DNA from: Eledone cirrhosa
Taxonomy: Eukaryota
Reading direction: 5' to 3'
DNA length: 64,000 nt
Assembly (NCBI GenBank): GCA_964016885.1
Contig: OZ024748.1
Span: forward strand, 3,100,001-3,164,000
This document shows positions 27,924-62,447 of the stretch, piece by piece; the first letter of the stretch is position 1, and each line of letters starts with the position of its first letter. The notes beneath the pieces were generated by a model. That model had not been told where the DNA came from and did no database searches. It saw only the letters and a list, made by a program, of their open reading frames with translations. The translations under genes and the position numbers were made by a program.

Positions 27924-29385
27924 AGTGGAAAACTGCCAGTGTCATTCCTCTGTTCAAAAAGGGTGACCGCACATCACCTGTGAACTATCGTCCAGTCAGT
28001 CTTACTAGTTGCATCGCCAAACTGATGGAATCCTGTGTCAGAGAAACACTTTGGAACTTCTGGAGCTCTCACAGTCTTATCCGGCCCTCGCAATTTGGAT
28101 TTATCCCCAACTCCAGCTGCTGTGATCAACTTATAGAGTTTCTTGAGGACATCACCTGGATCACTGATGGCGGCTCATGGGTGGATGTTGTTTACCTTGA
28201 CTTTGCGAAGGCCTTCAATTCTGTGCCACACAAAAGGCTTATGGAAAAACTCTCTGCAATGGGTGTGAAGGATGATCTTTTTAACTGGTTGAAGTCCTTC
28301 ATTCTCAGTCGAAGAGAGGTAGTCACGGTTCTGGGACAGCATTCCTCACCATATGAGATGTCATCTGGTGTACCTCAGGGATCTGTTCTTGGCCCCCTTT
28401 TGTTTGTGGCATATATTAATGACATAGATGCCAACTTAAAGAATGCCACAGTACTAAAGTACGCAGACGACATCAAGCTGTACCTTGAGATAAAAAGGAC
28501 AGATCCTGAACACTATAGATCTTGCTTGCAGTCTGATCTGGACACAATGCAACAGTGGATCTCAGACTGGCAACTCAAGCTAGCTGTGGACAAGTGCACC
28601 ACCATGCATTTTGGGAGTAAAAACCCAGCGTCCACATACTCCCTCCACAGCACTAATATCAAGAAGTCTTCCTGTGAACGTGACCTGGGCATTACGGTCA
28701 GCAGCGATTTGCGTTGGACGAGGCACGTCTCTTAAATTGTCAAGAGGGCCGAGGGTGTCTTAGCATCACCCAGCAAGACCTTTGTCAGCCGCTCTCCAGA
28801 TATCTATTTAAGGCTGTATACAGCTATGGTGCGACCACACTTAGAATTTGCATCACCAGTCTGGAACCCCTATCTTGCTCAGGACATTGACCGCCTGGAA
28901 ACTGTTCAGAGACGTGCAACCAAGCGAATACCCTCCATCAGGCATCTACCATACTCTGAGCGCCTTGCTTCCCTGGGCATGGATTCATTGAAGCTCTGAC
29001 GCCTGGCAACTGACTAGGTAAACACCCACAAAATTGTTAACCATGTTGCCAACAACAACCCTGAGTACCTTTTCGATTTCCATGTGTCTAACACACGTGG
29101 ACATGCCCACAAAGTAAGAAAACAGCACAGTTCCCATGACTTTCGGAAACATTTTTTCACGCTCAGAGTTGCTGAAGCATGGAACAAACTACCTGCATCA
29201 GTTGTTAGCTGTCGAGACACTGCATCCTTTAAGGCCTCCATGCTTCCCGAGATCCGCCAACAGAACAGCTAACACATACACACATGTACTTCCCTGACAT
29301 TTGTGTATTATTCTATGTACTATATTGACGATATGTAGTGCAACTGAGCACTTTACACAATAATTTCATTCATTATTATTATTAT
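27924..29385 (+). mobile_element. CR1-type LINE, 5'-truncated, RT domain to tail
   Basis: NYRPVSLTS, YLDFAKAFNSVPH, SGVPQGSVLGPLLF, YADDIK and RDLGI. In-frame stops at 28733 and later. (ATT)n tail. Confidence 0.95.
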
Positions 29386-30995: not shown

Positions 30996-31619
30996 GTCTG
31001 CAGAGTATAAGGGCCGATATATCAACTAAATCCTTTCAAACCAGTAAAGGACAAAAAAAAAAAAAGAAAGATTCTAGGAGATTTGTTTGTTTTTGATTTT
31101 TGTTGATATTTTTTCTACCTTATTTCTTCTTCTTTTTCTTCTTTTTTTGTAACTTTCTTTCTTTTTTTGTTTGATTTACTCCAAGTACATTCTGTGCCTT
31201 AGCAGGATTACTATTGTTAAGTCTGCAATTATAAATTACAATACCTCAGTACTTTCCTATGGCTTTTATTGAATTCTAAATGAATATCCTATTGGCCATA
31301 TTGATTTTTTGGAGGTGGTGGGTGGGGTTGCTTTTAAAAACTTTTTCTTGTTTGTTTTGGGGTTTTGGTTTTTTTTTTTATAGTTGCTGCCACTCTCACC
31401 TCATCCCCCTCCAACACCACCACCCTTTCCCCCCTACTTCCTCCACCATCCTCCCCCACCGTCACCACCACCTTTTCTCATTTGTATTCTCTGTTCAATC
31501 CAGCCTTCTCTCTCTCTCTCATTTTATCCCTCTCTCTCACTCTCTCCCTATCTTTCTGTCTCTCTCTCACTTTTTCCTTCTCTTTCTCCTCTCCCCCCTC
31601 TCTCTCTTTCTTGTTGTTG

Positions 31620-34600: not shown

Positions 34601-36555
34601 TAGTGGCATGGTGACAGTGTCGGTGGTGGTAGTGGCATGGTGACAGTGTCGGTGGTGGTAGTGGCATGGTGACAGTGTCGGTGGTGGTAGTGGCATGGTG
34701 ACAGTGTCGGTGGTGGTAGTGGCATGGTGACAGTGTCGGTGGTGGTAGTGACATGGTGACAGTGTCGGTGGTGGTAGTGACATGGTGACAGTGTCGGTGG
34801 TGGTAGTGGCATGGTGACAGTGTCGGTGGTGGTAGTGGCATGGTGACAGTGTCGGTGGTGGTAGTGGTATGGTGACAGTGTCGGTGGTGGTAGTGGCATG
34901 GTGACAGTGTCGGTGGTGGTAGTGACATGGTGACAGTGTCGGTGGTGGTAGTGACATGGTGACAGTGTCGGTGGTGGTAGTGACATGGTGACAGTGTCGG
35001 TGGTGGTAGTGACATGGTGACAGTGTCGGTGGTGGTAGTGACATGGTGACAGTGTCGGTGGTGGTAGTGGTATGGTGACAGTGTCGGTAGTGGTATGGTG
35101 ACAGTGTCGGTGGTGGTAGTGACATGGTGACAGTGTCGGTGGTGGTAGTGACATGGTGACAGTGTCGGTGGTGGTAGTGGTATGGTGACAGTGTCGGTGG
35201 TGGTAGTGGTATGGTGACAGTGTCGGTGGTGGTAGTGGTATGGTGACAGTGTCGGTGGTGGTAGTGACATGGTGACAGTGTCGGTGGTGGTAGTGACATG
35301 GTGACAGTGTCGGTGGTGGTAGTGGCATGGTGACAGTGTCGGTGGTGGTAGTGGCATGGTGACAGTGTCGGTGGTGGTAGTGGTATGGTGACAGTGTCGG
35401 TGGTGGTAGTGGTATGGTGACAGTGTCGGTGGTGGTAGTGGTATGGTGACAGTGTCGGTGGTGGTAGTGACATGGTGACAGTGTCGGTGGTGGTAGTGGT
35501 ATGGTGACAGTGTCGGTGGTGGTAGTGGCATGGTGACAGTGTCGGTGGTGGTAGTGACATGGTGACAGTGTCGGTGGTGGTAGTGGTATGGTGACAGTGT
35601 CGGTGGTGGTAGTGACATGGTGACAGTGTCGGTGGTGGTAGTGGTATGGTGACAGTGTCGGTGGTGGTAGTGGCATGGTGACAGTGTCGGTGGTGGTAGT
35701 GGTATGGTGACAGTGTCGGTGGTGGTAGTGACATGGTGACAGTGTCGGTGGTGGTAGTGGTATGGTGACAGTGTCGGTGGTGGTAGTGGCATGGTGACAG
35801 TGTCGGTGGTGGTTGTGGCATGGTGACAGTGTCGGTGGTGGTAGTGACATGGTGACAGTGTCGGTGGTGGTAGTGACATGGTGACAGTGTCGGTGGTGGT
35901 AGTGGTATGGTGACAGTGTCGGTGGTGGTAGTGGCATGGTGACAGTGTCGGTGGTGGTAGTGACATGGTGACAGTGTCGGTGGTGGTAGTGGTATGGTGA
36001 CAGTGTCGGTGGTGGTAGTGACATGGTGACAGTGTCGGTGGTGGTAGTGGTATGGTGACAGTGTCGGTGGTGGTAGTGGCATGGTGACAGTGTCGGTGGT
36101 GGTAGTGACATGGTGACAGTGTCGGTGGTGGTAGTGGTATGGTGACAGTGTCGGTGGTGGTAGTGACATGGTGACAGTGTCGGTGGTGGTAGTGGTATGG
36201 TGACAGTGTCGGTGGTGGTAGTGGTATGGTGACAGTGTCGGTGGTGGTAGTGGTTTGGTGACAGTGTCGGTGGTGGTAGTGGTATGGTGACAGTGTCGGT
36301 GGTGGTAGTGGTATGGTGACAGTGTCGGTGGTGGTAGTGGTATGGTGACAGTGTCGGTGGTGGTAGTGGTATGGTGACAGTGTCGGTGGTGGTAGTGGTT
36401 TGGTGACAGTGTCGGTGGTGGTAGTGGTATGGTGACAGTGTCGGTGGTGGTAGTGGTATGGTGACAGTGTCGGTGGTGGTAGTGGTATGGTGACAGTGTC
36501 GGTGGTGGTAGTGGTATGGTGACAGTGTCGGTGGTGGTAGTGGTATGGTGACAGT
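31620..36555. repeat. 29-bp GT-rich minisatellite, about 170 copies
   Basis: Unit ggtgacagtgtcggtggtggtagtg(ac/gt/gc)at. Confidence 0.98.
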
Positions 36556-41618: not shown

Positions 41619-42240
41619 CAATGAATGTTGATCTGTAGCAGGACTAATGCGGGATGTGAAGGATCCCAGGTAACCTGATGGCAAAGGGATTCATTGTTGT
41701 CAATATACCAAACCCTATCCAAATGTCACACATGTCACTTTCATAAGCAATTACAATTTAAAGCATAGTTTGCAGCCCTCATGTATATATATATATGTTT
41801 GTATGTATATATATATATGTTTGTATGTATATATATATATATGTTTGTATGTATATATATATATATGTTTGTATGTATATATATATATTAGCTGCCGAGA
41901 CACTGCATCCTTTAAGACACTCATGCTTCCCAAAATACGCCAAAACTACACCTGATGTACCCCTTCCATACACATGCACACATGTGTGTATCATGACTCG
42001 TGCACTGTTAATTTTACTGATGTTTGTGCATTGCCCTATGTACTGTACATGCACTTTTTTGATGAGTTGTGGTGCACCTGGGCACTGTGCACAATATTTC
42101 GTTATTGTTATTATATCATGACTCATACACTGTTTATTTTCCTGACATTTGTACATTATTCTATGTACTATACATGCACCTTTGATGAGTTGTAGTGCAC
42201 CTGAGCACTGTACACAATAATTTCATTATTATTATATTAT
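41445..42240. mobile_element. CR1 3'-end fragments: minus copy 41445-41560 and plus copy 41888-42240 with a duplicated tail
   Basis: SCRDTASFKTLMLPKIRQNY and two consecutive gatgagttgt(a/g)gtgcacctg tails. Confidence 0.8.
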
Positions 42241-42244
42241 TATT

Positions 42245-42933
42245 ATATATGTTTGTATGTATATATATATATATGTTTGTATGTATATATATATATGTTT
42301 GTATGTATATATATATGTTTGTATGTATATATATATATGTTTGTATGTATATATATATATGTTTGTATGTATATATATATATGTTTGTATGTATATATAT
42401 ATATATATGTTTGTATGTATATATATATATGTTTGTATGTATATATATATATATATATATGTTTGTATGTATATATATATATGTTTGTATGTATATATAT
42501 ATATATATGTTTGTATGTATATATATATATATGTTTGTATGTATATATATATATATATATATATGTTTGTATGTATATATATATATATATATGTTTGTAT
42601 ATATATATATATATATATATATGTTTGTATATATATATATATATATATATATGTTTGTATGTATATATATATATATATATATGTTTGTATGTATATATAT
42701 ATATATATATAAGTTTGTATGTATATATATATATATGTTTGTATGTATATATATATATGTTTGTATGTATATATATATATGTTTGTATGTATATATATAT
42801 ATATATGTTTGTATGTATATATATATATATGTTTGTATGTATATATATATATATGTTTGTATGTATATATATATATATGTTTGTATGTATATATATATAT
42901 GTTTGTATGTATATATATATATATATATGTTTG

Positions 42934-42964
<31 letters not shown>

Positions 42965-42969
42965 GTTTG

Positions 42970-43049
<80 letters not shown>

Positions 43050-43077
43050 TGTATGTGTATATATATATATATGTTTG

Positions 43078-43121
<44 letters not shown>

Positions 43122-43123
43122 TG

Positions 43124-43163
<40 letters not shown>

Positions 43164-43165
43164 TG

Positions 43166-43205
<40 letters not shown>

Positions 43206-43976
43206 TTTATATGTATATATATATATATATATATATGTTTGTATGTATATATATATATATATATAAGTTTGTATGTATATATATATATATGTTTGTATGT
43301 ATATATATATATATGTTTGTATGTGTATATATATATGTTTGTATGTATATATATATATGTTTGTATGTATATATATATATATATATATATATGTTTGTAT
43401 GTATATATATATATATATATATATGTTTGTATGTATATATATATATATATATATGTTTGTATGTATATATATATATATATGTTTGTATGTATATATATAT
43501 ATATATATAAGTTTGTATGTATATATATATATATGTTTGTATGTATATATATATATATGTTTGTATGTATATATATATATGTTTGTATGTATATATATAT
43601 ATGTTTGTATGTATATATATATATGTTTGTATATATATATATGTTTGTATGTATATATATATATAAGTTTGTATGTATATATATATATATGTTTGTATAT
43701 ATATATATGTTTGTATGTATATATATATATGTTTGTATGTATATATATATATGTTTGTATGTATATATATATATATGTTTGTATGTATATATATATATAT
43801 GTTTGTATGTATATATATATATATGTTTGTATGTATATATATATATATGTTTGTATGTATATATATATGTTTGTATGTATATATATATATATGTTTGTAT
43901 GTATATATATATATATGTTTGTATGTATATATATATATATGTTTGTATGTATATATATATATATTTATAATTGTAT

Positions 43977-44015
<39 letters not shown>

Positions 44016-44017
44016 TG

Positions 44018-44057
<40 letters not shown>

Positions 44058-44923
44058 TTTGTATGTATATATATATATATATATATAAGTTTGTATGTAT
44101 ATATATATATATATGTTTGTATGTATATATATATATATATATATAAGTTTGTATGTATATATATATATATGTTTGTATGTATATATATGTTTGTATGTAT
44201 ATATATATATGTTTGTATGTATATATATATATGTTTGTATGTATATATATATATGTTTGTATGTATATATATATATATGTTTATATGTATATATATATAT
44301 ATGTTTGTATGTATATATATATATATGTTTGTATGTATATATATATATGTTTGTATGTATATATATATATATATGTTTGTATGTATATATATATATGTTT
44401 GTATGTATATATATATATGTTTGTATGTATATATATATATATATGTTTGTATGTATATATATATATATATATATATATGTTTGTATGTATATGTTTGTAT
44501 ATATATATATATATATATGTTTGTATGTATATATATATATATATATATGTTTGTATGTATATATATATATATATATGTTTGTATGTATATATATATATAT
44601 ATATGTTTGTATGTATATATATATATATATATGTTTGTATGTATATATATATATATATATGTTTGTATGTATATATATATATATATATATGTTTGTATGT
44701 ATATATATATATATATCTGTTTGTATGTATATATATATATATGTTTGTATGTATATATATATATGTTTGTATGTATATATATATATATATATGTTTGTAT
44801 GTATATATATATATATGTTTGTATGTATATATATATATATATATGTTTGTATGTATATATATGTTTGTATATATATATATATATATGTTTGTATGTATAT
44901 ATATATATATATATATATATGTT

Positions 44924-44957
<34 letters not shown>

Positions 44958-45155
44958 TGTATGTATATATATATATATATATGTTTGTATGTATATATAT
45001 ATATATATATATGTTTGTATGTATATATATATATATATATATGTCTGTATGTATATATATTTGTTTGTATGTATATATATTTGTTTGTATGTATATATAT
45101 ATGTTTGTATGTATATATATATATATATGTTTGTATGTATATATATATATATGTT

Positions 45156-45187
<32 letters not shown>
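42245..45187. repeat. GTTTGTATG(TA)n compound microsatellite array
   Basis: Anchor gtttgtatg with variable TA runs. Also present at 41783-41888, 60625-61791 and 62448-62720. Confidence 0.97.
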
Positions 45188-45188
<1 letters not shown>

Positions 45189-45248
45189 CATCTCGGAGGT
45201 TGTTTTTCGTTGTTTCGTGGGCCGAAATGCGAATCTCGATAATTTATG

Positions 45249-45293
<45 letters not shown>

Positions 45294-45461
45294 GTATATA
45301 TATATTTATGTGTATATACATATATTTATGTGTATATACATATATTTATGTATATATATATATATATACATAAATATATGTATATACACATAAATATATA
45401 TATATATATAAAATATTAAACAAATAATGAACAAACAATTCCTTATATTAAACAAAAAAAG

Positions 45462-45616
45462 TTCACTATTTAACGATCGTTTCTAGGGTATATATGTGCT
45501 ATAATTGGTATGCATATTTAACAGATCTATGTACAAAATTATACAAAATTATACAAATTATCAAGATTAAATATACATACCTAACTCATATATACGCCGT
45601 CTTCAGAAATAATGAA
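45462..45616 (-). ncRNA. Hammerhead ribozyme in the inverted pLTR arm
   Basis: Reverse complement of 53129-53283. Confidence 0.8.
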
Positions 45617-46385
45617 GTATATTTATTGATAATAACAACAATTCAAAATATCAGTTCAAAATTGACCAATGAAAACACAAAGGGTTAAAAAGCAGTTTGG
45701 TGTGTGTATATACATGTAAAACCCTACACACATTTTACAATAATGTGTGTATAATATGTATGTGCATACTAAAAAGATGGATGCAAATAAAAAATTTCAA
45801 GGTTAATATCTCTGTAAGCTTAATGCGCTGATAAGATACGCAATGATACTTATGTAGTCAAGCATATAAATATATTTTTTTCATACTCACACATATCAGT
45901 ATAATCACACATACATGTGCGTATATATATAAATATACACATTACCACGAACACACAAACACACACACACCCCCCACTCACATTTATATATGTGGATATA
46001 AAATCATAAGCAAATAGAAATTAAGTCACTCACATAAACACACTGGTACATACATTTCAAGATCAAGATACAGAAATTAGGTGGGAGGGGGGGGGAGGGG
46101 TCAGTATTAGGTTGTCAGACCAGACAGCCTAATATAAATGTATCTATAAATTATGAAAAATAAAAAAATAAAAACAATAAAATATATTACATATAATATA
46201 ATGTACATACGCATACAGATATACATACACATACATACATGTACGCGCACATAGAGATATCTACACATACATACATACACACATACCTATACTGTCATAC
46301 ACACACATACATTTACACGAACATACACATACACATATAAAAAGATAAAAATACGGACACACACACGCGCAACACATACACACAT

Positions 46386-46436
<51 letters not shown>

Positions 46437-46549
46437 TATACACACACACACATAGACTCATATATATATACATACACATACATATACCTATACATAAACA
46501 TATATATATCCCACACTCATACCACCATGAAAACACATACAAACATCCA

Positions 46550-46598
<49 letters not shown>

Positions 46599-46690
46599 AT
46601 ACACACACGTACACATATATGCATATATACATACATATATACACACATACACATATATATATATACACACACACATAAAATACAGACATG

Positions 46691-46721
<31 letters not shown>

Positions 46722-46817
46722 TTCATTACCCTTATATATACACATAGTATATATACATACACAACCTCACTTATACACATATACACATAAGTTATATTAC
46801 AATAATAATAAAGAATA

Positions 46818-46848
<31 letters not shown>

Positions 46849-46987
46849 TATACACACATATACACATATACATACATACACATACATATACATACATACA
46901 TACACATACATACATACACCTAAATATAAACATATATAAATACACACATACGAATAAAGACATATATTCACACATAGACACCTATAT

Positions 46988-47019
<32 letters not shown>

Positions 47020-47112
47020 CTATATACACACACATACACATACATACACATATATATATATATACATACACATATATACACACTCACACACATACAGACA
47101 CACATACACACT

Positions 47113-47149
<37 letters not shown>

Positions 47150-50100
47150 ATGTGAGTGTGCGCAAATACATACATATATATACACACACACATACAAACA
47201 CACACAAACACATACATATGCATACATGCACACACACACACACATATATCACATAGATACGAAGATAAACATATAAATAGAGAGACATACAAATATATAC
47301 AGAACCCATATACACATACATGCAAACACGCATATACATATATACATATATACACACATATATATTCCTATATACAAGCATACACATACACACACATATA
47401 TACATATACCTACACATATATATACCACACATTCACATACACGTACATATATAAAATACATATATATACATACATATACATACATATGTATGTACAATCA
47501 TATATACACACTCAATCTTACATTCATATTTACATGCTCATATATGTATTTTTATATCTAGAAATAAATACCAAAAAAAAACTATATAGACACCCATCTA
47601 CCCATATATTCATACATATACACTTACAAAAACAGATGATAATAGTATGGGGGAAAGGGGGGGGTTTGGAGAAGGGGATCAAAGTAAATATATGTTTCAA
47701 GAAACCTATAATATTTTCCATATCTTAATTCAATGTATGTTCTTACATATTTTCAATGCTAGGAAATACGAAATCTATGCATCACAAAATAAAAAAGTAT
47801 ACCATTAATCATATGTCAACTAAACCAAAGATAGTCAACATATTGATTTCCAAGGTGTAAATTAGTTAGGTTTATAATATTTGAAGCAGAATTATGAAGT
47901 CAAACAGTAGTAGATTATTAATTACATTATAACTAAATTAAAGTTAATAATAGGGAAAAGAAACCCAAATAAAAATAAAATAAAGTATTACATCGGTAGT
48001 AGCATATAAATTATATGTTAACTAAGTTAAAAATTATATATTTATTTCAATAGTATATGTTAATTAGTATATGTTAATTAGGTATACAATACATAAAGCA
48101 GATATTGTATTTCATCAATAGCATAATATAATTATATGCAAATAAAAATCAAAATTAATACGCATACACATACATATACATACACATACACATACATATA
48201 CATATACATACACATATATATATATATATATATACATATATATACACACATACATACATATATAGTCACATAAATATACATACAGATACACATACAATAC
48301 ACACATATACATATACATATAGATATACATATCTTTTTCAAAAAATTTGCACAGAATATATTAACTAGGTATATATCCAAAAACACCTCCCATTCTATGA
48401 TTACATGAAATTCTGCAATTCGTCTGTACAAGGATACTAATTTTAAGCAAATTAAAATTAAAATTAAAGTTTTAGGTTGATTAAAGCTAAAACCAAATAA
48501 TAAATATATTTCCAAAATGTATATTAATTAGGTCAATAATACTAAAAATTCTTTCTCCGTCATAGGATACATGATATTATTTTGTTATATTTTATCTGTA
48601 AAAGAATTATAATAAAAAAAATTTTATAATAAAAGGTTAAACTAAATTAAAAAATTATAATAAAAGGTTAAAATAAGTTAAAATTAATCTATAAATTAAA
48701 TTACTGAATATATATTAGTAATATTTAAAGGTTTTTCAAAATTAATGATTACATAATATTTTCTCATCTGTAATAAAATATTAATTAAATTAAATTTATA
48801 GGTTAACTAACATTTAAATTAAATTAAATTCTAGAATAATGTTATTAATTAGGTTTATAATATTTAAATGTTTTTTTTAGTTTATGATTACACGATATAA
48901 TTAATTCCTGTCTTTTATTTAATAAGATATCCCTAGACTTCATTATTTCAAATAGTTCTTGGGAACATAATCTACATTCCTTTCTATTATTTTGATAAGG
49001 GGTGGCTCTTTTGAGCACACTCCAGGTCAAATCATATTTTATATTTTTATTTTTATAACTATTGATTTTTTCTGCTAGAGATGTTGTATTAGCCAGTGCG
49101 GCATTTTTAAAGCTATGTTTGTGGGTATTATACCTTGTCTTAAAATTGTTAGAGGTAGCTCCTATATATGAGCAAATAGAATCTTTAGTTTTAACATTAC
49201 ATTTATAGACTATGTTGTTAACAAGACAATTTTACAAGTTAAGGATAATATTGCTAAAAAATTTTTTTATATCCTTGAGAAAAACTTCCCGCCAAACCAC
49301 AAATACCATCAAATCTTAAATAGGTCTACAGTTAAATTCTCATATTCTACAACAAATAACATAAAACAAAATATAAGTGCATATAATGCATATAAATGTA
49401 AGAAAACTATAAGTATACCACCAGTACATCAAATTAACAATAATATCTCCTCAAATACAGAATTAACGAAAGGATGTAACTGTAGAAACAAAACAAACTG
49501 CCCATTAAAAGGGAATTGTCTTGTTAACAACATAGTCTATAAATGTAATGTTAAAACTAAAGATTCTATTTGCTCATATATAGGAGCTACCTCTAACAAT
49601 TTTAAGACAAGGTATAATACCCACAAACATAGCTTTAAAAATGCCGCACTGGCTAATACAACATCTCTAGCAGAAAAAATCAATAGTTATAAAAATAAAA
49701 ATATAAAATATGATTTGACCTGGAGTGTGCTCAAAAGAGCCACCCCTTATCAAAATAATAGAAAGGAATGTAGATTATGTTCCCAAGAACTATTTGAAAT
49801 AATGAAGTCTAGGGATATCTTATTAAATAAAAGACAGGAATTAATTATATCGTGTAATCATAAACTAAAAAAAACATTTAAATATTATAAACCTAATTAA
49901 TAACATTATTCTAGAATTTAATTTAATTTAAATGTTAGTTAACCTATAAATTTAATTTAATTAATATTTTATTACAGATGAGAAAATATTATGTAATCAT
50001 TAATTTTGAAAAACCTTTAAATATTACTAATATATATTCAGTAATTTAATTTATAGATTAATTTTAACTTATTTTAACCTTTTATTATAATTTTTTAATT

Positions 50101-51595
50101 TAGTTTAACCTTTTATTATAAAATTTTTTTTATTATAATTCTTTTACAGATAAAATATAACAAAATAATATCATGTATCCTATGACGGAGAAAGAATTTT
50201 TAGTATTATTGACCTAATTAATATACATTTTGGAAATATATTTATTATTTGGTTTTAGCTTTAATCAACCTAAAACTTTAATTTTAATTTTAATTTGCTT
50301 AAAATTAGTATCCTTGTACAGACGAATTGCAGAATTTCATGTAATCATAGAATGGGAGGTGTTTTTGGATATATACCTAGTTAATATATTCTGTGCAAAT
50401 TTTTTGAAAAAGATATGTATATCTATATGTATATGTATATGTGTGTATTGTATGTGTATCTGTATGTATATTTATGTGACTATATATGTATGTATGTGTG
50501 TATATATATGTATATATATATATATATATATGTGTATGTATATGTATATGTATGTGTATGTGTATGTATATGTATGTGTATGCGTATTAATTTTGATTTT
50601 TATTTGCATATAATTATATTATGCTATTGATGAAATACAATATCTGCTTTATGTATTGTATACCTAATTAACATATACTAATTAACATATACTATTGAAA
50701 TAAATATATAATTTTTAACTTAGTTAACATATAATTTATATGCTACTACCGATGTAATACTTTATTTTATTTTTATTTGGGTTTCTTTTCCCTATTATTA
50801 ACTTTAATTTAGTTATAATGTAATTAATAATCTACTACTGTTTGACTTCATAATTCTGCTTCAAATATTATAAACCTAACTAATTTACACCTTGGAAATC
50901 AATATGTTGACTATCTTTGGTTTAGTTGACATATGATTAATGGTATACTTTTTTATTTTGTGATGCATAGATTTCGTATTTCCTAGCATTGAAAATATGT
51001 AAGAACATACATTGAATTAAGATATGGAAAATATTATAGGTTTCTTGAAACATATATTTACTTTGATCCCCTTCTCCAAACCCCCCCCTTTCCCCCATAC
51101 TATTATCATCTGTTTTTGTAAGTGTATATGTATGAATATATGGGTAGATGGGTGTCTATATAGTTTTTTTTTGGTATTTATTTCTAGATATAAAAATACA
51201 TATATGAGCATGTAAATATGAATGTAAGATTGAGTGTGTATATATGATTGTACATACATATGTATGTATATGTATGTATATATATGTATTTTATATATGT
51301 ACGTGTATGTGAATGTGTGGTATATATATGTGTAGGTATATGTATATATGTGTGTGTATGTGTATGCTTGTATATAGGAATATATATGTGTGTATATATG
51401 TATATATGTATATGCGTGTTTGCATGTATGTGTATATGGGTTCTGTATATATTTGTATGTCTCTCTATTTATATGTTTATCTTCGTATCTATGTGATATA
51501 TGTGTGTGTGTGTGTGCATGTATGCATATGTATGTGTTTGTGTGTGTTTGTATGTGTGTGTGTATATATATGTATGTATTTGCGCACACTCACAT

Positions 51596-51632
<37 letters not shown>

Positions 51633-51725
51633 AGTGTGTATGTGTGTCTGTATGTGTGTGAGTGTGTATATATGTGTATGTATATATATATATATGTGTA
51701 TGTATGTGTATGTGTGTGTATATAG

Positions 51726-51757
<32 letters not shown>

Positions 51758-51896
51758 ATATAGGTGTCTATGTGTGAATATATGTCTTTATTCGTATGTG
51801 TGTATTTATATATGTTTATATTTAGGTGTATGTATGTATGTGTATGTATGTATGTATATGTATGTGTATGTATGTATATGTGTATATGTGTGTATA

Positions 51897-51927
<31 letters not shown>

Positions 51928-52023
51928 TATTCTTTATTATTATTGTAATATAACTTATGTGTATATGTGTATAAGTGAGGTTGTGTATGTATATATACTA
52001 TGTGTATATATAAGGGTAATGAA

Positions 52024-52054
<31 letters not shown>

Positions 52055-52146
52055 CATGTCTGTATTTTATGTGTGTGTGTATATATATATATGTGTATGT
52101 GTGTATATATGTATGTATATATGCATATATGTGTACGTGTGTGTAT

Positions 52147-52195
<49 letters not shown>

Positions 52196-52308
52196 TGGAT
52201 GTTTGTATGTGTTTTCATGGTGGTATGAGTGTGGGATATATATATGTTTATGTATAGGTATATGTATGTGTATGTATATATATATGAGTCTATGTGTGTG
52301 TGTGTATA

Positions 52309-52357
<49 letters not shown>

Positions 52358-53128
52358 ATGTGTGTATGTGTTGCGCGTGTGTGTGTCCGTATTTTTATCT
52401 TTTTATATGTGTATGTGTATGTTCGTGTAAATGTATGTGTGTGTATGACAGTATAGGTATGTGTGTATGTATGTATGTGTAGATATCTCTATGTGCGCGT
52501 ACATGTATGTATGTGTATGTATATCTGTATGCGTATGTACATTATATTATATGTAATATATTTTATTGTTTTTATTTTTTTATTTTTCATAATTTATAGA
52601 TACATTTATATTAGGCTGTCTGGTCTGACAACCTAATACTGACCCCTCCCCCCCCCCCTCCCACCTAATTTCTGTATCTTGATCTTGAAATGTATGTACC
52701 AGTGTGTTTATGTGAGTGACTTAATTTCTATTTGCTTATGATTTTATATCCACATATATAAATGTGAGTGGGGGGTGTGTGTGTGTTTGTGTGTTCGTGG
52801 TAATGTGTATATTTATATATATACGCACATGTATGTGTGATTATACTGATATGTGTGAGTATGAAAAAAATATATTTATATGCTTGACTACATAAGTATC
52901 ATTGCGTATCTTATCAGCGCATTAAGCTTACAGAGATATTAACCTTGAAATTTTTTATTTGCATCCATCTTTTTAGTATGCACATACATATTATACACAC
53001 ATTATTGTAAAATGTGTGTAGGGTTTTACATGTATATACACACACCAAACTGCTTTTTAACCCTTTGTGTTTTCATTGGTCAATTTTGAACTGATATTTT
53101 GAATTGTTGTTATTATCAATAAATATAC

Positions 53129-53283
53129 TTCATTATTTCTGAAGACGGCGTATATATGAGTTAGGTATGTATATTTAATCTTGATAATTTGTATAATTTT
53201 GTATAATTTTGTACATAGATCTGTTAAATATGCATACCAATTATAGCACATATATACCCTAGAAACGATCGTTAAATAGTGAA
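53129..53283 (+). ncRNA. Type I hammerhead ribozyme with an extended stem II, in the 5' pLTR
   Basis: Stem I ttcattattt/aaatagtgaa, CTGAAGA 53139-53145, stem II gtatatatg/catatatac plus ggtatgtatatttaa/ttaaatatgcatacc, GAAAC 53262-53266, palindromic stem III ACGATCGT, GUU site at 53271-53273. Confidence 0.82.
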
Positions 53284-53626
53284 CTTTTTTTGTTTAATAT
53301 AAGGAATTGTTTGTTCATTATTTGTTTAATATTTTATCTTGACTCTGTATACCGTTTATCTTTCACCGAAATTGGATTTTCATTACATCTCTTCTTTCCA
53401 TGATATCCGGAATACATTGAGTTCTTCATACGGATTGGACACTACCGTAAACTCTTGGTAGATTTATCTACATAATTTTGCTCCTATTTTCACGGAAATA
53501 TTCGTATTTTTGTACTGTATGTGTGTATTAATTTTATATTTATGTATATACATATATATATGTATGATTTTGTAAACCCATATACATTTAGTTGAGCTCT
53601 TTCAATTGTCCATCATCCATATCACA

Positions 53627-56069
53627 ATGGAAAAACAATATTTAGGAACCTCCTTAAAAAACATACCAATACCTTCTAAGGACGACTTCTTACTCCTTAT
53701 GATTCAGAAAACTAATAATTTTATCAGAAGGGTTAGATGGAGAGCCTACCACTTTGATAGAAAATCTAAACAAGCAGATCGGAAATATATGTATGATTTC
53801 AACACTTACAAGAATCCACCACACAACTTTTTACTTGAAGACTTCGAGAAAGACCTTTTTAATTTAATTAAACATCTCAAATTTAAAAAGTATAAATCCG
53901 TCTTTCAAAAGGACCTTGATTCTACCCTATTGGACCTAAAAAAGTCTAAAAAAATCCATGTCCACTCGGACAAAACTGGTAACTTGTATCATATGGATAT
54001 TGAACATTATAATGAGTTCATATATAAAGAACTCAGAAAAAGTTATAAAAAATCTAATAATGCGTCACTCACCAACATCAACAACAAAACACACAACATA
54101 GTAAAAAAACTAAATATTGAAGATAGAACTGAACCTTTGGCATTGAGAAGTCCACACTTCAACCTGAAAGATCACAAATCTAACTTTAACTCTAATCCTT
54201 CTATTAGACTTATATGTCCCTCCAAATCAGATATTGGAATAATTAGCAAAAAAATTTTAGATAGAGTCATCCCACAAATAAGAAAATACGTTATTTTACC
54301 ACTCTGGGAAAACACCTCCCAGGTAATTAATTGGTTTAAAAATATTAGGTGTAAATCTTCTGCTTCTTTCCTACAGTTTGATATAGATAACTATTATTCT
54401 TCTATATCACCCATACTCCTGAACAAAGCATTAATATTTGCTAAAAATAGATCTAATTTAACTTCGGATGACATTAACATTATTACACATGCTAGACAAA
54501 CACTTATTGAATTTCAGAACGAATACTGGACCAGAAACACTTATAGTAATCTTTTTGATATTACTATGGGTTCAAGCGATTCTGCCCAAATTACTGATCT
54601 TGTGGGCCTCTTTCTCCTTTTCAACATAAATGCCTCTTTTCCCCACCTCAAAGGTGGTTTATATCGTGATGACTGTCTTCTTCTTTCTAACAACCTTAGC
54701 CTTTCAGAAATCGAAAAAAACAAAAAGCATATTAGAACTTTCCTTAAGGACTATTATAATCTTAATATTACTTTTGAAAAAACAAGTAAAGTAGTAAATT
54801 TCCTAGATATAACTTTAGATTTAGCTACGGGTATATACCAACCTTACCATAAACCTAACCAAAACTTACATTACATACACTCACAATCTAATCACCCTAA
54901 ATCTATCCTTAAAAACCTTGCATATAATATATCACTTAGAATTTCTAACCTTTCTTCTAACCAAGATGTATTTGATAAAAATGCGACCTTTTATAATGAA
55001 GCTCTAGATAGAAGTGGCCACAAAAATAGATTAGAGTATATAACTTCTACTAAAAATACTGAAAACATACAGCATAATATTACCAACAAACACCAAATGA
55101 AAGGTACACACCTAAATGCCACCCACAGTATACCCCAAAATACTAAATCTTCTAATATAAAGTATAGTAACCCTCAAAAAACTACTCATCATAAGACTAT
55201 AATAAATATTAATAATAAAACTCCTAATAAAAAAGATAAAACACCTAAATCTACAAATATAACTAAAAATAGTTGTGGTGAGATCATTAACATTATTCCT
55301 CCTAGTAAAAATCATGATACAACATATAAAAATAATAAAAATAATAAACAACATAGAAACCGTAATAGACGAGTTACTTGGTATAATGCTCCTTTTAATT
55401 TACAAGTTAAGGATAATATTGCTAAAAAAATTTTTTTATATCCTTGAGAAAAACTTCCCGCCAAACCACAAATACCATCAAATCTTAAATAGGTCTACAG
55501 TTAAATTCTCATATTCTACAACAAATAACATAAAACAAAATATAAGTGCATATAATGCATATAAATGTAAGAAAACTATAAGTATACCACCAGTACATCA
55601 AATTAACAATAATATCTCCTCAAATACAGAATTAACGAAAGGATGTAACTGTAGAAACAAAACAAACTGCCCATTAAAAGGGAATTGTCTTGTTAACAAC
55701 ATAGTCTATAAATGTAATGTTAAAACTAAAGATTCTATTTGCTCATATATAGGAGCTACCTCTAACAATTTTAAGACAAGGTATAATACCCACAAACATA
55801 GCTTTAAAAATGCCGCACTGGCTAATACAACATCTCTAGCAGAAAAAATCAATAGTTATAAAAATAAAAATATAAAATATGATTTGACCTGGAGTGTGCT
55901 CAAAAGAGCCACCCCTTATCAAAATAATAGAAAGGAATGTAGATTATGTTCCCAAGAACTATTTGAAATAATGAAGTCTAGGGATATCTTATTAAATAAA
56001 AGACAGGAATTAATTATATCGTGTAATCATAAACTAAAAAAAACATTTAAATATTATAAACCTAATTAA
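53627..56069 (+). CDS. PLE reverse transcriptase + GIY-YIG endonuclease (~813 aa if a +1 A at 55424-55430 is removed)
   Basis: N-terminal SLKNIP and FIRRVRWRAY, DKT motif. RT motifs FDIDNYYSSI, ITMGSSDSA and GLYRDD, then VNFLDITL. CNCRNKTNCPLKGNC knuckle, IVYKC...YIGAT...FKTRYNTH, and CRLC...LLNKRQE. Confidence 0.92.
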
Positions 56070-57765
56070 TAACATTATTCTAGAATTTAATTTAATTTAA
56101 ATGTTAGTTAACCTATAAATTTAATTTAATTAATATTTTATTACAGATGAGAAAATATTATGTAATCATTAATTTTGAAAAACCTTTAAATATTACTAAT
56201 ATATATTCAGTAATTTAATTTATAGATTAATTTTAACTTATTTTAACCTTTTATTATAATTTTTTAATTTAGTTTAACCTTTTATTATAAAATTTTTTTT
56301 ATTATAATTCTTTTACAGATAAAATATAACAAAATAATATCATGTATCCTATGACGGAGAAAGAATTTTTAGTATTATTGACCTAATTAATATACATTTT
56401 GGAAATATATTTATTATTTGGTTTTAGCTTTAATCAACCTAAAACTTTAATTTTAATTTTAATTTGCTTAAAATTAGTATCCTTGTACAGACGAATTGCA
56501 GAATTTCATGTAATCATAGAATGGGAGGTGTTTTTGGATATATACCTAGTTAATATATTCTGTGCAAATTTTTTGAAAAAGATATGTATATCTATATGTA
56601 TATGTATATGTGTGTATTGTATGTGTATCTGTATGTATATTTATGTGACTATATATGTATGTATGTGTGTATATATATGTATATATATATATATATATAT
56701 GTGTATGTATATGTATATGTATGTGTATGTGTATGTATATGTATGTGTATGCGTATTAATTTTGATTTTTATTTGCATATAATTATATTATGCTATTGAT
56801 GAAATACAATATCTGCTTTATGTATTGTATACCTAATTAACATATACTAATTAACATATACTATTGAAATAAATATATAATTTTTAACTTAGTTAACATA
56901 TAATTTATATGCTACTACCGATGTAATACTTTATTTTATTTTTATTTGGGTTTCTTTTCCCTATTATTAACTTTAATTTAGTTATAATGTAATTAATAAT
57001 CTACTACTGTTTGACTTCATAATTCTGCTTCAAATATTATAAACCTAACTAATTTACACCTTGGAAATCAATATGTTGACTATCTTTGGTTTAGTTGACA
57101 TATGATTAATGGTATACTTTTTTATTTTGTGATGCATAGATTTCGTATTTCCTAGCATTGAAAATATGTAAGAACATACATTGAATTAAGATATGGAAAA
57201 TATTATAGGTTTCTTGAAACATATATTTACTTTGATCCCCTTCTCCAAACCCCCCCCTTTCCCCCATACTATTATCATCTGTTTTTGTAAGTGTATATGT
57301 ATGAATATATGGGTAGATGGGTGTCTATATAGTTTTTTTTTTGGTATTTATTTCTAGATATAAAAATACATATATGAGCATGTAAATATGAATGTAAGAT
57401 TGAGTGTGTATATATGATTGTACATACATATGTATGTATATGTATGTATATATATGTATTTTATATATGTACGTGTATGTGAATGTGTGGTATATATATG
57501 TGTAGGTATATGTATATATGTGTGTGTATGTGTATGCTTGTATATAGGAATATATATGTGTGTATATATGTATATATGTATATGCGTGTTTGCATGTATG
57601 TGTATATGGGTTCTGTATATATTTGTATGTCTCTCTATTTATATGTTTATCTTCGTATCTATGTGATATATGTGTGTGTGTGTGTGCATGTATGCATATG
57701 TATGTGTTTGTGTGTGTTTGTATGTGTGTGTGTATATATATGTATGTATTTGCGCACACTCACAT

Positions 57766-57804
<39 letters not shown>

Positions 57805-57895
57805 AGTGTGTATGTGTGTCTGTATGTGTGTGAGTGTGTATATATGTGTATGTATATATATATATATGTGTATGTATGTGTATGTGTGTGTATAT

Positions 57896-57931
<36 letters not shown>

Positions 57932-58070
57932 ATATAGGTGTCTATGTGTGAATATATGTCTTTATTCGTATGTGTGTATTTATATATGTTTATATTTAGG
58001 TGTATGTATGTATGTGTATGTATGTATGTATATGTATGTGTATGTATGTATATGTGTATATGTGTGTATA

Positions 58071-58101
<31 letters not shown>

Positions 58102-58197
58102 TATTCTTTATTATTATTGTAATATAACTTATGTGTATATGTGTATAAGTGAGGTTGTGTATGTATATATACTATGTGTATATATAAGGGTAATGAA

Positions 58198-58228
<31 letters not shown>

Positions 58229-58320
58229 CATGTCTGTATTTTATGTGTGTGTGTATATATATATATGTGTATGTGTGTATATATGTATGTATATATGCAT
58301 ATATGTGTACGTGTGTGTAT

Positions 58321-58369
<49 letters not shown>

Positions 58370-58482
58370 TGGATGTTTGTATGTGTTTTCATGGTGGTAT
58401 GAGTGTGGGATATATATATGTTTATGTATAGGTATATGTATGTGTATGTATATATATATGAGTCTATGTGTGTGTGTGTATA

Positions 58483-58527
<45 letters not shown>

Positions 58528-59296
58528 ATGTGTGTATGTGTTGCGCGTGTGTGTGTCCGTATTTTTATCTTTTTATATGTGTATGTGTATGTTCGTGTAA
58601 ATGTATGTGTGTGTATGACAGTATAGGTATGTGTGTATGTATGTATGTGTAGATATCTCTATGTGCGCGTACATGTATGTATGTGTATGTATATCTGTAT
58701 GCGTATGTACATTATATTATATGTAATATATTTTATTGTTTTTATTTTTTTATTTTTCATAATTTATAGATACATTTATATTAGGCTGTCTGGTCTGACA
58801 ACCTAATACTGACCCCTCCCCCCCCCTCCCACCTAATTTCTGTATCTTGATCTTGAAATGTATGTACCAGTGTGTTTATGTGAGTGACTTAATTTCTATT
58901 TGCTTATGATTTTATATCCACATATATAAATGTGAGTGGGGGGTGTGTGTGTGTTTGTGTGTTCGTGGTAATGTGTATATTTATATATATACGCACATGT
59001 ATGTGTGATTATACTGATATGTGTGAGTATGAAAAAAATATATTTATATGCTTGACTACATAAGTATCATTGCGTATCTTATCAGCGCATTAAGCTTACA
59101 GAGATATTAACCTTGAAATTTTTTATTTGCATCCATCTTTTTAGTATGCACATACATATTATACACACATTATTGTAAAATGTGTGTAGGGTTTTACATG
59201 TATATACACACACCAAACTGCTTTTTAACCCTTTGTGTTTTCATTGGTCAATTTTGAACTGATATTTTGAATTGTTGTTATTATCAATAAATATAC

Positions 59297-59451
59297 TTCA
59301 TTATTTCTGAAGACGGCGTATATATGAGTTAGGTATGTATATTTAATCTTGATAATTTGTATAATTTTGTATAATTTTGTACATAGATCTGTTAAATATG
59401 CATACCAATTATAGCACATATATACCCTAGAAACGATCGTTAAATAGTGAA
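59297..59451 (+). ncRNA. Hammerhead ribozyme in the 3' pLTR
   Basis: Copy of 53129-53283. Confidence 0.8.
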
Positions 59452-59634
59452 CTTTTTTTGTTTAATATAAGGAATTGTTTGTTCATTATTTGTTTAATAT
59501 TTTATCTTGACTCTGTATACCGTTTATCTTTCACCGAAATTGGATTTTCATTACATCTCTTCTTTCCATGATATCCGGAATACATTGAGTTCTTCATACG
59601 GATTGGACACTACCGTAAACTCTTGGTAGATTTA

Positions 59635-59673
<39 letters not shown>

Positions 59674-59699: not shown

Positions 59700-60622
59700 T
59701 TATTAAGATAGTAGAAAGACCAGGTACCTCCATAAAAACACTTATTAGCAAGACATACCCTTTTCAAAGACCCTCATGTATAGATAAGAAATGTATAACC
59801 TGTAAAATAAGCCCCCATATTAACTGTAAAACTAGAAATGTAGTGTATAGCATAAGATGTACCGAAGGACAATGTAGAGACAAAAATATAGTGTACATAG
59901 GTGAGACAGCTCGTAGTGTAGGGGAACGGATAAATGAACACTGGCGAGACCTTCAAGATAATAAAGAATCATCTGTACTCTACCAACATGCTAAGATAGA
60001 ACACAAGGGTAAATTAGAGAACATAGAAATAAAAATAGAATCTACACACAGAAAAGACGCAATGTTTAGACAAATTACAGAGGCAATAAACATAAAAGAA
60101 TTACAACCAAAATTAAATAGAAAATATGAGTGGAACAGCAACATCACAACTTACAATTAAGGACAAAATGAAAACACACACACACATAGAACAAACAACC
60201 AACCAGTAACATGTAAATAAACAAATAGATAAATGAACATAAACACACACAGACACCCGGATGTGGCACATGCGCAGACTGAGCACACAACACACACACA
60301 GAAACAAAATGGCGTAGGACAGAACAAAGGAGAGGCACAGAAACAAAGAAAGGAGTCCCCAGTCACTGAAGAGGTCACAGAGTGTGTGACGAAAGAACTA
60401 TGACTATATATAAACAACTATCTGGTTGTGGAACCAACCAACCAACCAGAAATTTATAAATTTATAAATTTGTAAATTTATAAATATATAATAAATTGAA
60501 GTGAAAGCAACTGGCGCGTGTGTTTCTTATTGGCAACATGACCCTCCCAAAGTATAACAATATCGGTTTCAACACACGATTTCAGATAAAGAATCTTGCT
60601 AAACAAATTCAGAAACGAAATA
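59700..60622 (+). mobile_element. Second, unrelated Penelope-like element 3' fragment (GIY-YIG C-terminus + pLTR)
   Basis: C-x4-C-x2-C knuckle, NVVYSIRC...VYIGETARSVGERINEH, RQITEAINI...LNRKYEW, stop at 60160. Hammerhead downstream. Flanked by TA repeats. Confidence 0.88.
60361..60405 (+). ncRNA. Minimal type I hammerhead ribozyme
   Basis: agtca-CTGAAGA-g-gtcaca-gagtg-tgtgac-GAAA-gaac-TA-tgact. Stems I and II are perfect, stem III is weak, CUA site. Confidence 0.75.
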
Positions 60623-60624
60623 TA

Positions 60625-60846
60625 TTTATGTTTGTATATATATATATATATATATATTTATGTTTGTATATATATATATATATATATATTTATGTTTGTA
60701 TATATATATATATTTATGTTTGTATGTGTATGTATATATATATATGTTTGTATGTATATATATGTTTGTATGTATATATATATATGTTTGTATGTATATA
60801 TATATATATATGTTTGTATGTATATATATATATATATGTTTGTATG

Positions 60847-60877
<31 letters not shown>

Positions 60878-60886
60878 GTTTGTATG

Positions 60887-60919
<33 letters not shown>

Positions 60920-60935
60920 TATATATGTTTGAATG

Positions 60936-60968
<33 letters not shown>

Positions 60969-60981
60969 TATATATGTTTGA

Positions 60982-61022
<41 letters not shown>

Positions 61023-61791
61023 TGTATGTATATATATATGTTTGTATGTATATATATATATATATGTTTGTATGTATATATATATATATGTTTGTATGTA
61101 TATATATATATATATGTTTGTATGTATATATATATATATATGTTTGTATGTATATATATATATATATGTTTGTATGTATGTATATATATATATATATGTT
61201 TGTATGTATATATATATATATATGTTTGTATGTATGTATATATATATATATATGTTTGTATGTATATATATATATGTTTGTATGTATATATATATATATA
61301 TGTTTGTATGTATGTATATATATATATATATGTTTGTATGTATATATATATATATATGTTTGTATGTATATATATATATATATGTTTGTATGTATATATA
61401 TATATATGTTTGTATGTATATATATATATGTTTGTATGTATATATATATATATGTTTGTATGTATATATATATATATGTTTGTATGTATATATATATATA
61501 TATGTTTGTATGTATGTATATATATATATATGTTTGTATGTATATATATATGTTTGTATGTATATATATATATATATGTTTGTATGTATGTATATATATA
61601 TATATGTATGTATATATATATATATGTATGTATATATATATATATGTATGTATGTATGTATATATATATATATGTTTGTATGTATATATATATATATGTT
61701 TGTATGTATTTATATATATGTATATATATATGTTTGTATGTATATATATATATATATGTTTGTATGTATGTATATATATATGTTTGTATGT
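60625..61791. repeat. GTTTGTATG(TA)n array, right block
   Basis: Same anchor as 42245-45187. Confidence 0.95.
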
Positions 61792-62447
61792 ATGAAACCT
61801 GGATCTACCAGTATGATGCTGAATCCAAACAGCAGTCAAAACAGTGGCTTCCACGTGGATCATCGGAGCCAATCAAGTTCAAATCTCAAAAGTCGGATCA
61901 AAAAGTGATGGCCACCATTTTCTGGGATTCAGATGGGGTGATACTAATAGATTATCTTGAAGGTCAAAGAACTGTGACAGGAGCTTACTATGCAAATGTT
62001 TTAAGGAAGCTGAAAGAGGCATTAGTCAAGAAACGAAAAGGGAAACTTCATGGTGGGATCTTGTTTCACCATGACAATGCACCAGCGCATTCTGCGTGGG
62101 TTGCAAAAGAAGTTCTTCGAGAATTTAGATGGGAAGTGCTTCCTCACCTGCCTTATAGTCCAGATTTAGCCCCATCAGACTTTTTGCTCTTTCCAAAACT
62201 CAAAGAAATGCTAAAAGGAACCCGTTTTAGTGGTGTTGAAGAAGCTAAAAACACTGCCAACACATGGCTTCGAACAAGGCCTTCAACTTTCTTTAGAGAC
62301 GGCTTACGAAGCTGGAAACATCGCCTTGTCAAGTGTATTGACCTGGATAGTAACTATGTAGAAAAATAAATTGATGGTAAATCATATTTTTTGAAAAATA
62401 GAATATTTTCTGAAAAATTCTGCGAACTTTTTGATTCCCCCCTCGTA
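61792..62447 (+). mobile_element. Mariner transposon 3' half (DD34D transposase fragment + right TIR), irritans/Hsmar2-like
   Basis: [32 protein letters not shown] and [10 protein letters not shown], stop at 62369. TIR ...gaactttttgattcccccctcg|TA. The N-terminal half is absent from the window. Confidence 0.92.

What the first reader, a model, noticed from the sequence alone, without database searches (positions are those of the whole stretch)
45408..59638. Very young 14-kb Naiad-type Penelope element with a 7.9-kb near-perfect palindrome plus a partial tandem
Seen: the arm 45408-49231 mirrors 49514-53337 around a ~282-bp spacer, with only about 1 nt of overlap at the junction. The direct pLTRs are 4.24 kb. 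The differences I could find among the three copies are microsatellite or homopolymer lengths. The right end extends ~133 nt further (to gtagatttatcta) than the inverted arm. Established: inverted plus tandem pLTRs and a 3' tail extension are PLE hallmarks, and the DKT motif with a CxCx5C-type knuckle fits the Naiad clade. The size, and the preservation of both architectures in one insertion, make it a clear record of the integration mechanism and a potential source of long dsRNA.
Basis: partly seen in the sequence, partly recalled or inferred. Interest (0 to 1): 0.75.

Follow-up and report, generated by a model that had tools for sequence, protein, structure and literature searches.

The report
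Young Hydra-clade Penelope retrotransposon insertion
This is a real 14-kb back-to-back insertion of a young, abundant jumping gene of a known group (Hydra-type Penelope element, not Naiad); its mirror-plus-tandem layout is normal for this family, and the family's almost fixed pairing of one short and one long end likely records two separate copying starts at each insertion.

Summary
The structure is real and as described: a 3,824-bp inverted arm, a 282-bp spacer, a 4,240-bp partial copy and one 6,168-bp unit, with no substitutions among the three copies. The label is wrong. The ORF has the RT first and the GIY-YIG nuclease last, with RWR, DKT and CxCx5C motifs. That defines the Hydra clade; Naiads have an N-terminal nuclease and DKA. 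The locus is not exceptional: the genome holds about 850 long copies and 4,827 exact 3' ends, 24 of 30 sampled long insertions are inverted, and some reach 23 kb. The unit (6.2 kb vs up to 3 kb) and the tail (133-137 nt vs 30-40) are longer than in described relatives. The scan has already noted this kind of hammerhead, the stop at the ribozyme and the end regularity on other DNA of this genome. Verdict: a new, oversized family of a known clade, useful as a mechanistic record. The locus's own junction still lacks read support.

The parts
45408..49231 (-). Inverted arm: 5'-truncated copy (U6035 to U2213) ending at the short 3' end, joined to (TA)n
45463..45615 (-). Hammerhead copy in the inverted arm
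   Evidence: same sequence as 59298-59450; coordinates from the offsets
49231..53470 (+). Partial upstream unit (pLTR, U1929-6168): last 222 codons of the ORF (linker and GIY-YIG nuclease, in frame), 3' spacer, hammerhead, tail
49232..49513 (.). 282-bp unpaired spacer at the centre of the palindrome (U1930-2211 of the direct copy)
53130..53282 (+). Hammerhead copy in the upstream pLTR; 53132 (U5830) is where short copies pile up their 5' ends, a candidate transcription start
53471..59638 (+). One full 6,168-bp unit
53627..56069 (+). ORF: RT (RWR 37, DKT 115, YRDD 346), predicted disordered N/K/T-rich insert (aa 480-572), CxCx5C linker (673), C-terminal GIY-YIG (YIG 707, CxxC 771, CxH 799). Numbering is from an intact 813-aa sister copy; this copy is frameshifted
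55424..55430 (+). A7 run that shifts the frame in this copy (7 such copies in the genome against 849 with A6)
56070..59299 (+). 3.2-kb AT-rich, microsatellite-rich spacer between stop codon and hammerhead (24% GC; about a third is alternating purine-pyrimidine runs)
59298..59450 (+). Predicted type I hammerhead ribozyme: CUGAAGA at 59307, 116-nt stem II, GAAA at 59430, palindromic stem III, predicted cut after GUU at 59441
   Evidence: fold z = -5.3; pair counts
59506..59638 (+). 133-nt tail between the short end (U6035) and the long end (U6168 here, U6172 in most copies); missing from the inverted arm

Best explanation
This is one recent insertion of a Hydra-clade Penelope-like retrotransposon into a (TA)n microsatellite, and its mirror-plus-tandem shape likely arose because the element's enzyme nicked both target strands and primed two separate cDNAs from two fixed sites in RNA of one donor locus. 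Shown: the layout, domain order, family size, near-identity of parts within an insertion, and the pairing of short and long ends. Inferred: one cDNA started at the long site and ran 10.4 kb through a tandem transcript (full unit plus partial unit); the other started at the short site, 133 nt upstream, on the opposite strand and ran 3.8 kb; the two were joined at their far ends with a 1-nt overlap. The copy's own ORF is frameshifted in the assembly, so it would not supply full-length protein.
For: Clade: the motifs of PMC8557442's Hydra definition are in the protein and conserved across 89 aligned homologues. The RT lines up by eye with Hydra-1_Obim. The AlphaFold model (pLDDT 86) hits telomerase RT first. 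Family: 849 + 7 copies cover U1954, 197 carry the ATG 31-mer, there are 4,827 long-end 32-mers and 3,414 short ends joined to (TA)n. End pairing: 21 of 22 C1 insertions with both ends seen have one short and one long end (p = 5.5e-6 against 50:50). Of 68 loci picked by a terminal long end, 37 had an adjacent inverted arm; 31 of those arms ended exactly at U6035 and none at the long end. Independent arms: in 11 of the 21 mixed loci the short-ended arm reaches further 5' while the other arm holds the tail, so each has sequence the other lacks. One donor: ORF divergence is 0.08% between pieces of one fetched region against 2.06% between regions. Precedent: the Anolis enzyme nicks and extends both strands and starts at two internal sites that bound the tail (PMC11167929).
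Against: No phylogeny with named reference sequences was built, so clade membership rests on motifs, domain order and a by-eye alignment. This protein has two cysteines between the IVY and YIG motifs, as CCHH nucleases do, though they are not conserved in homologues and the usual second histidine is lysine. At this locus alone the inverted arm is fully contained in the direct side, so local fold-back is not excluded, and the arm resembles the adjacent copy (2 indels) more than the distal one (4). One of 22 loci has two short ends. In PMC11167929 start-site use did not appear to differ between strands, which does not by itself predict strict pairing. No read spans junction 49231.
Confidence: 0.72

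Rival explanations
1. Same element, different mechanism: one cDNA or antisense RNA folds back and self-primes, and the endonuclease then trims one end at the short site, leaving the tail on one side only.
For: Proposed in print (PMC3846280: self-priming on an antisense template; PMC8557442: tail from EN-mediated resolution). It predicts one-sided tails. Many short copies have near-perfect hairpin junctions. Here the arm is closest to the adjacent copy.
Against: Junctions of long copies join unrelated positions (for example U1827 to U5621). In 11 of 21 loci neither arm contains the other, which needs trimming of the template arm. In vitro data tie tail ends to RT start sites.
Confidence: 0.2
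2. The palindrome at this locus is a fold-back read or assembly artefact.
For: The arms have no substitutions, the flanks are low-complexity, and the available runs come from relatives about 5% diverged and show no 49231 junction.
Against: The arm ends at the exact base used by thousands of family ends and joins (TA)n. Palindromes point the same way relative to the element in all 24 inverted loci sampled. Short-read data of other samples show the family's fold-back at U5830: an opposite-strand joint at 59299/59300 in 4 reads with 3 starts in X18, and an inverted loose end in one X5 contig.
Confidence: 0.04
3. The element is a Naiad.
For: (TA)n target, inverted plus tandem layout, and no Rfam hammerhead hit.
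Against: The nuclease is C-terminal, the motif is DKT and not DKA, there is no extra length between RT motifs A and B compared with Hydra-1_Obim, and a hammerhead fold is present. Among the 120 listed homologues, CxCx5C lies after the catalytic DD in 50 and before it in 0; 101 have DKT and 2 have DKA.
Confidence: 0.01

Closest known systems
Hydra clade of C-terminal EN+ Penelope-like elements (Craig et al. 2021, PMC8557442), e.g. Hydra-1_Obim
   Same: RT then GIY-YIG; RW[K/R], DKT, CxCx5C linker, CxxC and CxH around the catalytic E and N; (TA)n target; type I hammerhead with CUGAAGA core, minimal stem III and GUU site.
   Different: The unit is 6.17 kb against 1.4-3.0 kb in the 20 supplement rows seen. 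It has a 3.2-kb microsatellite spacer. The RT-linker region is 116 aa against a median of 22 in 89 homologues. Stem II is 116 nt against short 4-7 bp stems in the five Hydra rows seen.
Poseidon_Ac of Anolis carolinensis (PMC11167929)
   Same: Two fixed 3' ends bounding a tail; AT-rich targets; hammerhead in the pLTR; tandem copies.
   Different: Different clade. Its start sites lie inside the ORF; here they lie upstream of the ATG and 133-137 nt apart, against the 30-40 nt generally quoted.
Adineta vaga Penelope families (PMC3846280)
   Same: Inverted plus direct pLTRs with a one-sided tail; long spacers before the 3' pLTR in Pen1 (0.9-1.5 kb); asparagine-rich inserts in the ORF.
   Different: pLTRs of about 200 bp, a 31-bp tail and few copies, against multi-kilobase arms and hundreds of near-identical long copies.
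Naiad clade (PMC8557442)
   Same: (TA)n bias, tandem and inverted insertions, high copy number.
   Different: N-terminal nuclease, DKA, insertion in fingers, CCHH, no canonical hammerhead.

Membership tests
Hydra clade PLE | Single ORF, RT followed by C-terminal GIY-YIG | tested here: met
   813-aa ORF in 16 of 16 sister copies with the ATG motif; TERT-like fold; YIG, R, H, E, N conserved. Pfam finds no domain in this protein; GIY-YIG is found weakly in homologue P0003 at 691-719.
Hydra clade PLE | RWK motif, and DKT in place of DKG | tested here: met
   RWR at 37 (K in 47, R in 29 of the homologues), DKT at 115.
Hydra clade PLE | CxCx5C linker; CxxC and CxH beside the catalytic E and N | tested here: met
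   C673/C675/C681, CRLC 771, E777, N790, CNH 799.
Hydra clade PLE | CCHH motif absent from the nuclease | tested here: met
   C696 and C705 exist here but are unconserved (A in 79 of 87 at 696), and position 740 is K, not H.
Hydra clade PLE | Insertion into (TA)n | tested here: met
   Both flanks here; nearly all terminal ends.
Hydra clade PLE | Hammerhead in the pLTR | tested here: met
   Predicted fold z = -5.3; 4,196 of 4,300 pair cells kept in 79 sequences, one pair with a two-sided change. It is non-canonical (long stem II), missed by Rfam, and cleavage is untested.
Hydra clade PLE | Generally short (under 3 kb), a descriptive trait | tested here: not met
   6,168-bp unit; the excess is the 3' spacer and the ORF insert.
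Hydra clade PLE | Groups with Hydra references in an RT tree | not tested
   Named reference proteins were visible only as supplement text; compared by eye.
Naiad clade PLE | N-terminal GIY-YIG nuclease | tested here: not met
Naiad clade PLE | DKA motif | tested here: not met
   DKT; no DKA in the protein
Naiad clade PLE | Insertion in fingers (about 20 extra aa between RT motifs A and B) | tested here: not met
   65 residues from FDI to MG here against 66 in Hydra-1_Obim, counted by hand

The most novel reading that the evidence does not exclude
This family shows that a Penelope-type enzyme makes each insertion by an obligatory two-strand, two-site priming event, one strand always from the short site and the other from the long site 137 nt away. 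Its templates would be linear multi-unit transcripts plus a capped RNA starting at the 5' edge of an unusually large hammerhead. The result is hundreds of multi-kilobase palindromes, and a microsatellite-carrying unit that also inserts into itself.
Probability: 0.3. Interest if true: 0.6.

Novelty: new variant of a known kind. Interest (0 to 1): 0.35.

Why it matters
How Penelope-like elements make tandem and inverted insertions is still open, and they are the sister group of telomerase. A family with about 200 ATG-bearing young copies, intact 813-aa ORFs and two sharply fixed ends 137 nt apart is a good substrate for deciding between twin priming and fold-back. It also shows that a 3-Gb animal genome carries hundreds of recent multi-kilobase palindromes. 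This particular locus adds little beyond being one clean example, and its ORF is broken.

Tried and rejected
Rfam found no hammerhead, only microsatellite-driven miRNA hits below threshold. A core-pattern scan with a gap of up to 45 nt also missed it. The tail does not fold better than shuffles (z = -1.0; z = -0.8), so the idea that one stem brings both start sites together was dropped. Untemplated G before U5830 (cap signature): 10 of 24 contexts, p = 0.013 at a 20% background and 0.25 at one third, inconclusive. Which tandem unit the lone arm resembles: the adjacent or inner unit here and at C10, a different pattern at C4, uninformative at C21 and C3; inconclusive. A-to-G hyper-editing: none in this copy against 12 sister units, 14-29 mixed substitutions each. 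Homodimer prediction for aa 1-478: no verdict. Sequencing runs: no RNA holder listed; the DNA runs are relatives and cannot test junction 49231. Pfam on the window's RT and nuclease parts gave nothing significant. Five literature searches found no description of a 6-kb Hydra family, a tail over 100 nt, or counted end pairing; subscription papers and Repbase were not searched, and the bioRxiv preprint's supplements were not seen.
Full report
Observation. Self-BLAST and pairwise alignment give an inverted arm at 45408-49231, a direct partial copy at 49231-53470 and a full 6,168-bp unit at 53471-59638 (U1-U6168). There is no substitution among the three copies, only 2, 4 and 6 indels in homopolymers or (TA)n. 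The arm stops at U6035 and the direct side at U6168, a 133-nt tail. Both flanks are TA-type microsatellite. One indel matters: A7 at 55424-55430 shifts the ORF, which ends at 606 aa, whereas 16 of 16 sister copies with the ATG motif give 813 aa. Genome-wide the motif has A6 in 849 places and A7 in 7. Slippage and consensus error cannot be told apart here.

Clade. Craig et al. 2021 (PMC8557442; parts 1-3 of 10, passages and supplement searches) define Naiads by an N-terminal GIY-YIG, DKA and an insertion in fingers. They define Hydra by a C-terminal GIY-YIG, RWK, DKT, a CxCx5C linker, no CCHH, CxxC and CxH motifs, and (TA)n targets. The intact sister protein has RWR 37, DKT 115, YRDD 346, CxCx5C 673, YIG 707, CRLC 771 and CNH 799. 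These are conserved in the 89 homologues aligned, chosen from the 120 listed of 142 hits and mostly the longer ones. Two cysteines between IVY and YIG are private to this protein. The model is confident (pLDDT 86) apart from a disordered N/K/T-rich stretch at 480-572, and its best structural matches are telomerase RTs. No tree with named references was built.

Family. The genome is 3.0 Gb. The 40 other best-scoring RT-region matches are all 99-100% identical. Exact patterns give 4,827 long-end motifs, 3,414 short ends joined to (TA)n and 197 ATG motifs. The window copy differs from its closest sisters at 2-3 of 2,443 ORF sites, so it belongs to the youngest group. Related sequence about 5% diverged is in runs of other organisms. 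An earlier scan note calls the host an octopus; I did not test that.

Architecture across loci. I fetched 20 kb around the first 30 clusters on contig C1. Reading by hand: 24 of 30 are inverted, always with 3' ends outward, and 6 of 30 are inverted plus tandem. In 22 both ends were seen; 21 pair a short (U6035) with a long (U6172) end, 1 has two short ends, none two long. Sizes ran from 5.9 to 16.9 kb, with 2 above this locus's 14.2 kb. Loci chosen for clustered ORFs reached 20.6-23.1 kb with up to about three units in a row. In 11 of the 21 mixed loci the short-ended arm extends further 5', 9 are the reverse and 1 is equal. In those 11 each arm carries sequence the other lacks, which rules out a simple fold-back copy, biological or technical, as the general cause. 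ORF pieces within one fetched region differ by 0.08%, between regions by 2.06%, so the parts of an insertion come from one donor.

Short copies. I examined 70 long-end loci: the first 30, then 40 of the following ones, skipping most that lay in long loci already fetched. Of these, 68 were counted terminal (one, L159, is probably read-through). Thirty-seven had an adjacent inverted arm, 31 ending exactly at U6035. Inner ends fell within U5821-5840 in 27 of 37 arms and 22 of 68 direct parts, with differing junction letters, so these are independent stops. U5830 is the 5' edge of hammerhead stem I and sits in TCATT, which resembles an initiator (consensus recalled, not from a call). A transcription start there is plausible; the cap-G test was inconclusive. 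Short-read data from other samples show the same fold-back point.

Ribozyme. Rfam missed it, but 59298-59450 folds into a type I hammerhead with CUGAAGA, a 116-nt stem II, GAAA, a palindromic stem III and a GUU site (z = -5.3, 0 of 200 shuffles). In 79 sequences 97.6% of pair cells are kept, one pair shows G-C/A-U/G-U exchange, and a C-C mismatch near the base of stem II is invariant. These sequences were collected by a pattern that required the cores, so core conservation is by construction. Palindromic stem III suggests dimer-dependent, slow cleavage (PMC4209133, passages), which would allow multi-unit templates. A shared 11-mer, TTTCAC[C/G]GAAA, lies behind each end (53361/59529 and 53488) and nowhere else in the window, at unequal distances (24 and 14 nt).

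Mechanism. PMC11167929 (parts 1-2 of 4) shows a PLE enzyme nicking and extending both strands and starting at two internal sites that bound the tail. The family data fit two cDNAs per event, one from each site, joined at their far ends. The rival is self-priming with endonuclease trimming (PMC3846280, passages), which the data strain but do not exclude. On dsRNA: the element's sense promoters would point out of the palindrome (inference), so a hairpin RNA needs read-through or antisense transcription, and no RNA data were available.

Novelty. Inverted plus tandem layout, one-sided tail, long captured spacers and asparagine-rich inserts all have precedent. Young Penelope families are reported in Octopus vulgaris (PMC13282606, passages), and PLE-related retrozymes in a 2026 preprint (10.64898/2026.07.22.740005, passages). 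What departs from print, as far as five searches reach, is the size of unit, tail and stem II and the counted end pairing. Earlier notes of this scan describe several of these features on other DNA of the same genome. Interest 0.35.

Noticed in passing
window 59702-60620 (+): 3' fragment of a different Penelope-like element directly behind the right (TA)n flank: C-terminal GIY-YIG (Pfam E 7e-5) with CX4CxxC and CCHH-like residues (Neptune/Nematis type by the paper's motifs) and a short hammerhead-like core at about 60361-60405 (fold not better than shuffles). Its 3' region recurs near many fetched loci.
   Followed up: partly
window about 61800-62369 (+): Mariner-type transposase fragment (Transposase_1, E 3e-22) between microsatellite blocks.
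   Followed up: partly
window 23053-24270 (-): 406-aa open frame matching galactose-3-O-sulfotransferase (E 1.5e-59); a host gene about 21 kb from the insertion, whose upstream side faces it.
   Followed up: partly
window 31612-36555: 4.9-kb G-rich, strand-skewed 29-bp minisatellite, about 170 copies, 94% match.
   Followed up: no
window 42233-45410 and 60620-61793: Both sides of the insertion region carry long arrays of the same (TATATATGTTTG)-type compound microsatellite.
   Followed up: no
window 7553 (-) and 40860 (+): Two more minimal hammerhead-like cores outside the element.
   Followed up: no
window 5591-6738 (+), 16887-17774 (-), 27926-28732 (+): Decayed LINE reverse-transcriptase fragments, two with a PHD finger.
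   Followed up: partly
G000:C1:114853900-114854480 (L109/L110): A short fold-back copy of the family has inserted into the microsatellite spacer of a longer, older copy.
   Followed up: partly
G000:C1:49988000 region (L077/L078): Clusters of A/G differences between two tandem units, possibly the RNA-editing scars other scan notes describe.
   Followed up: no
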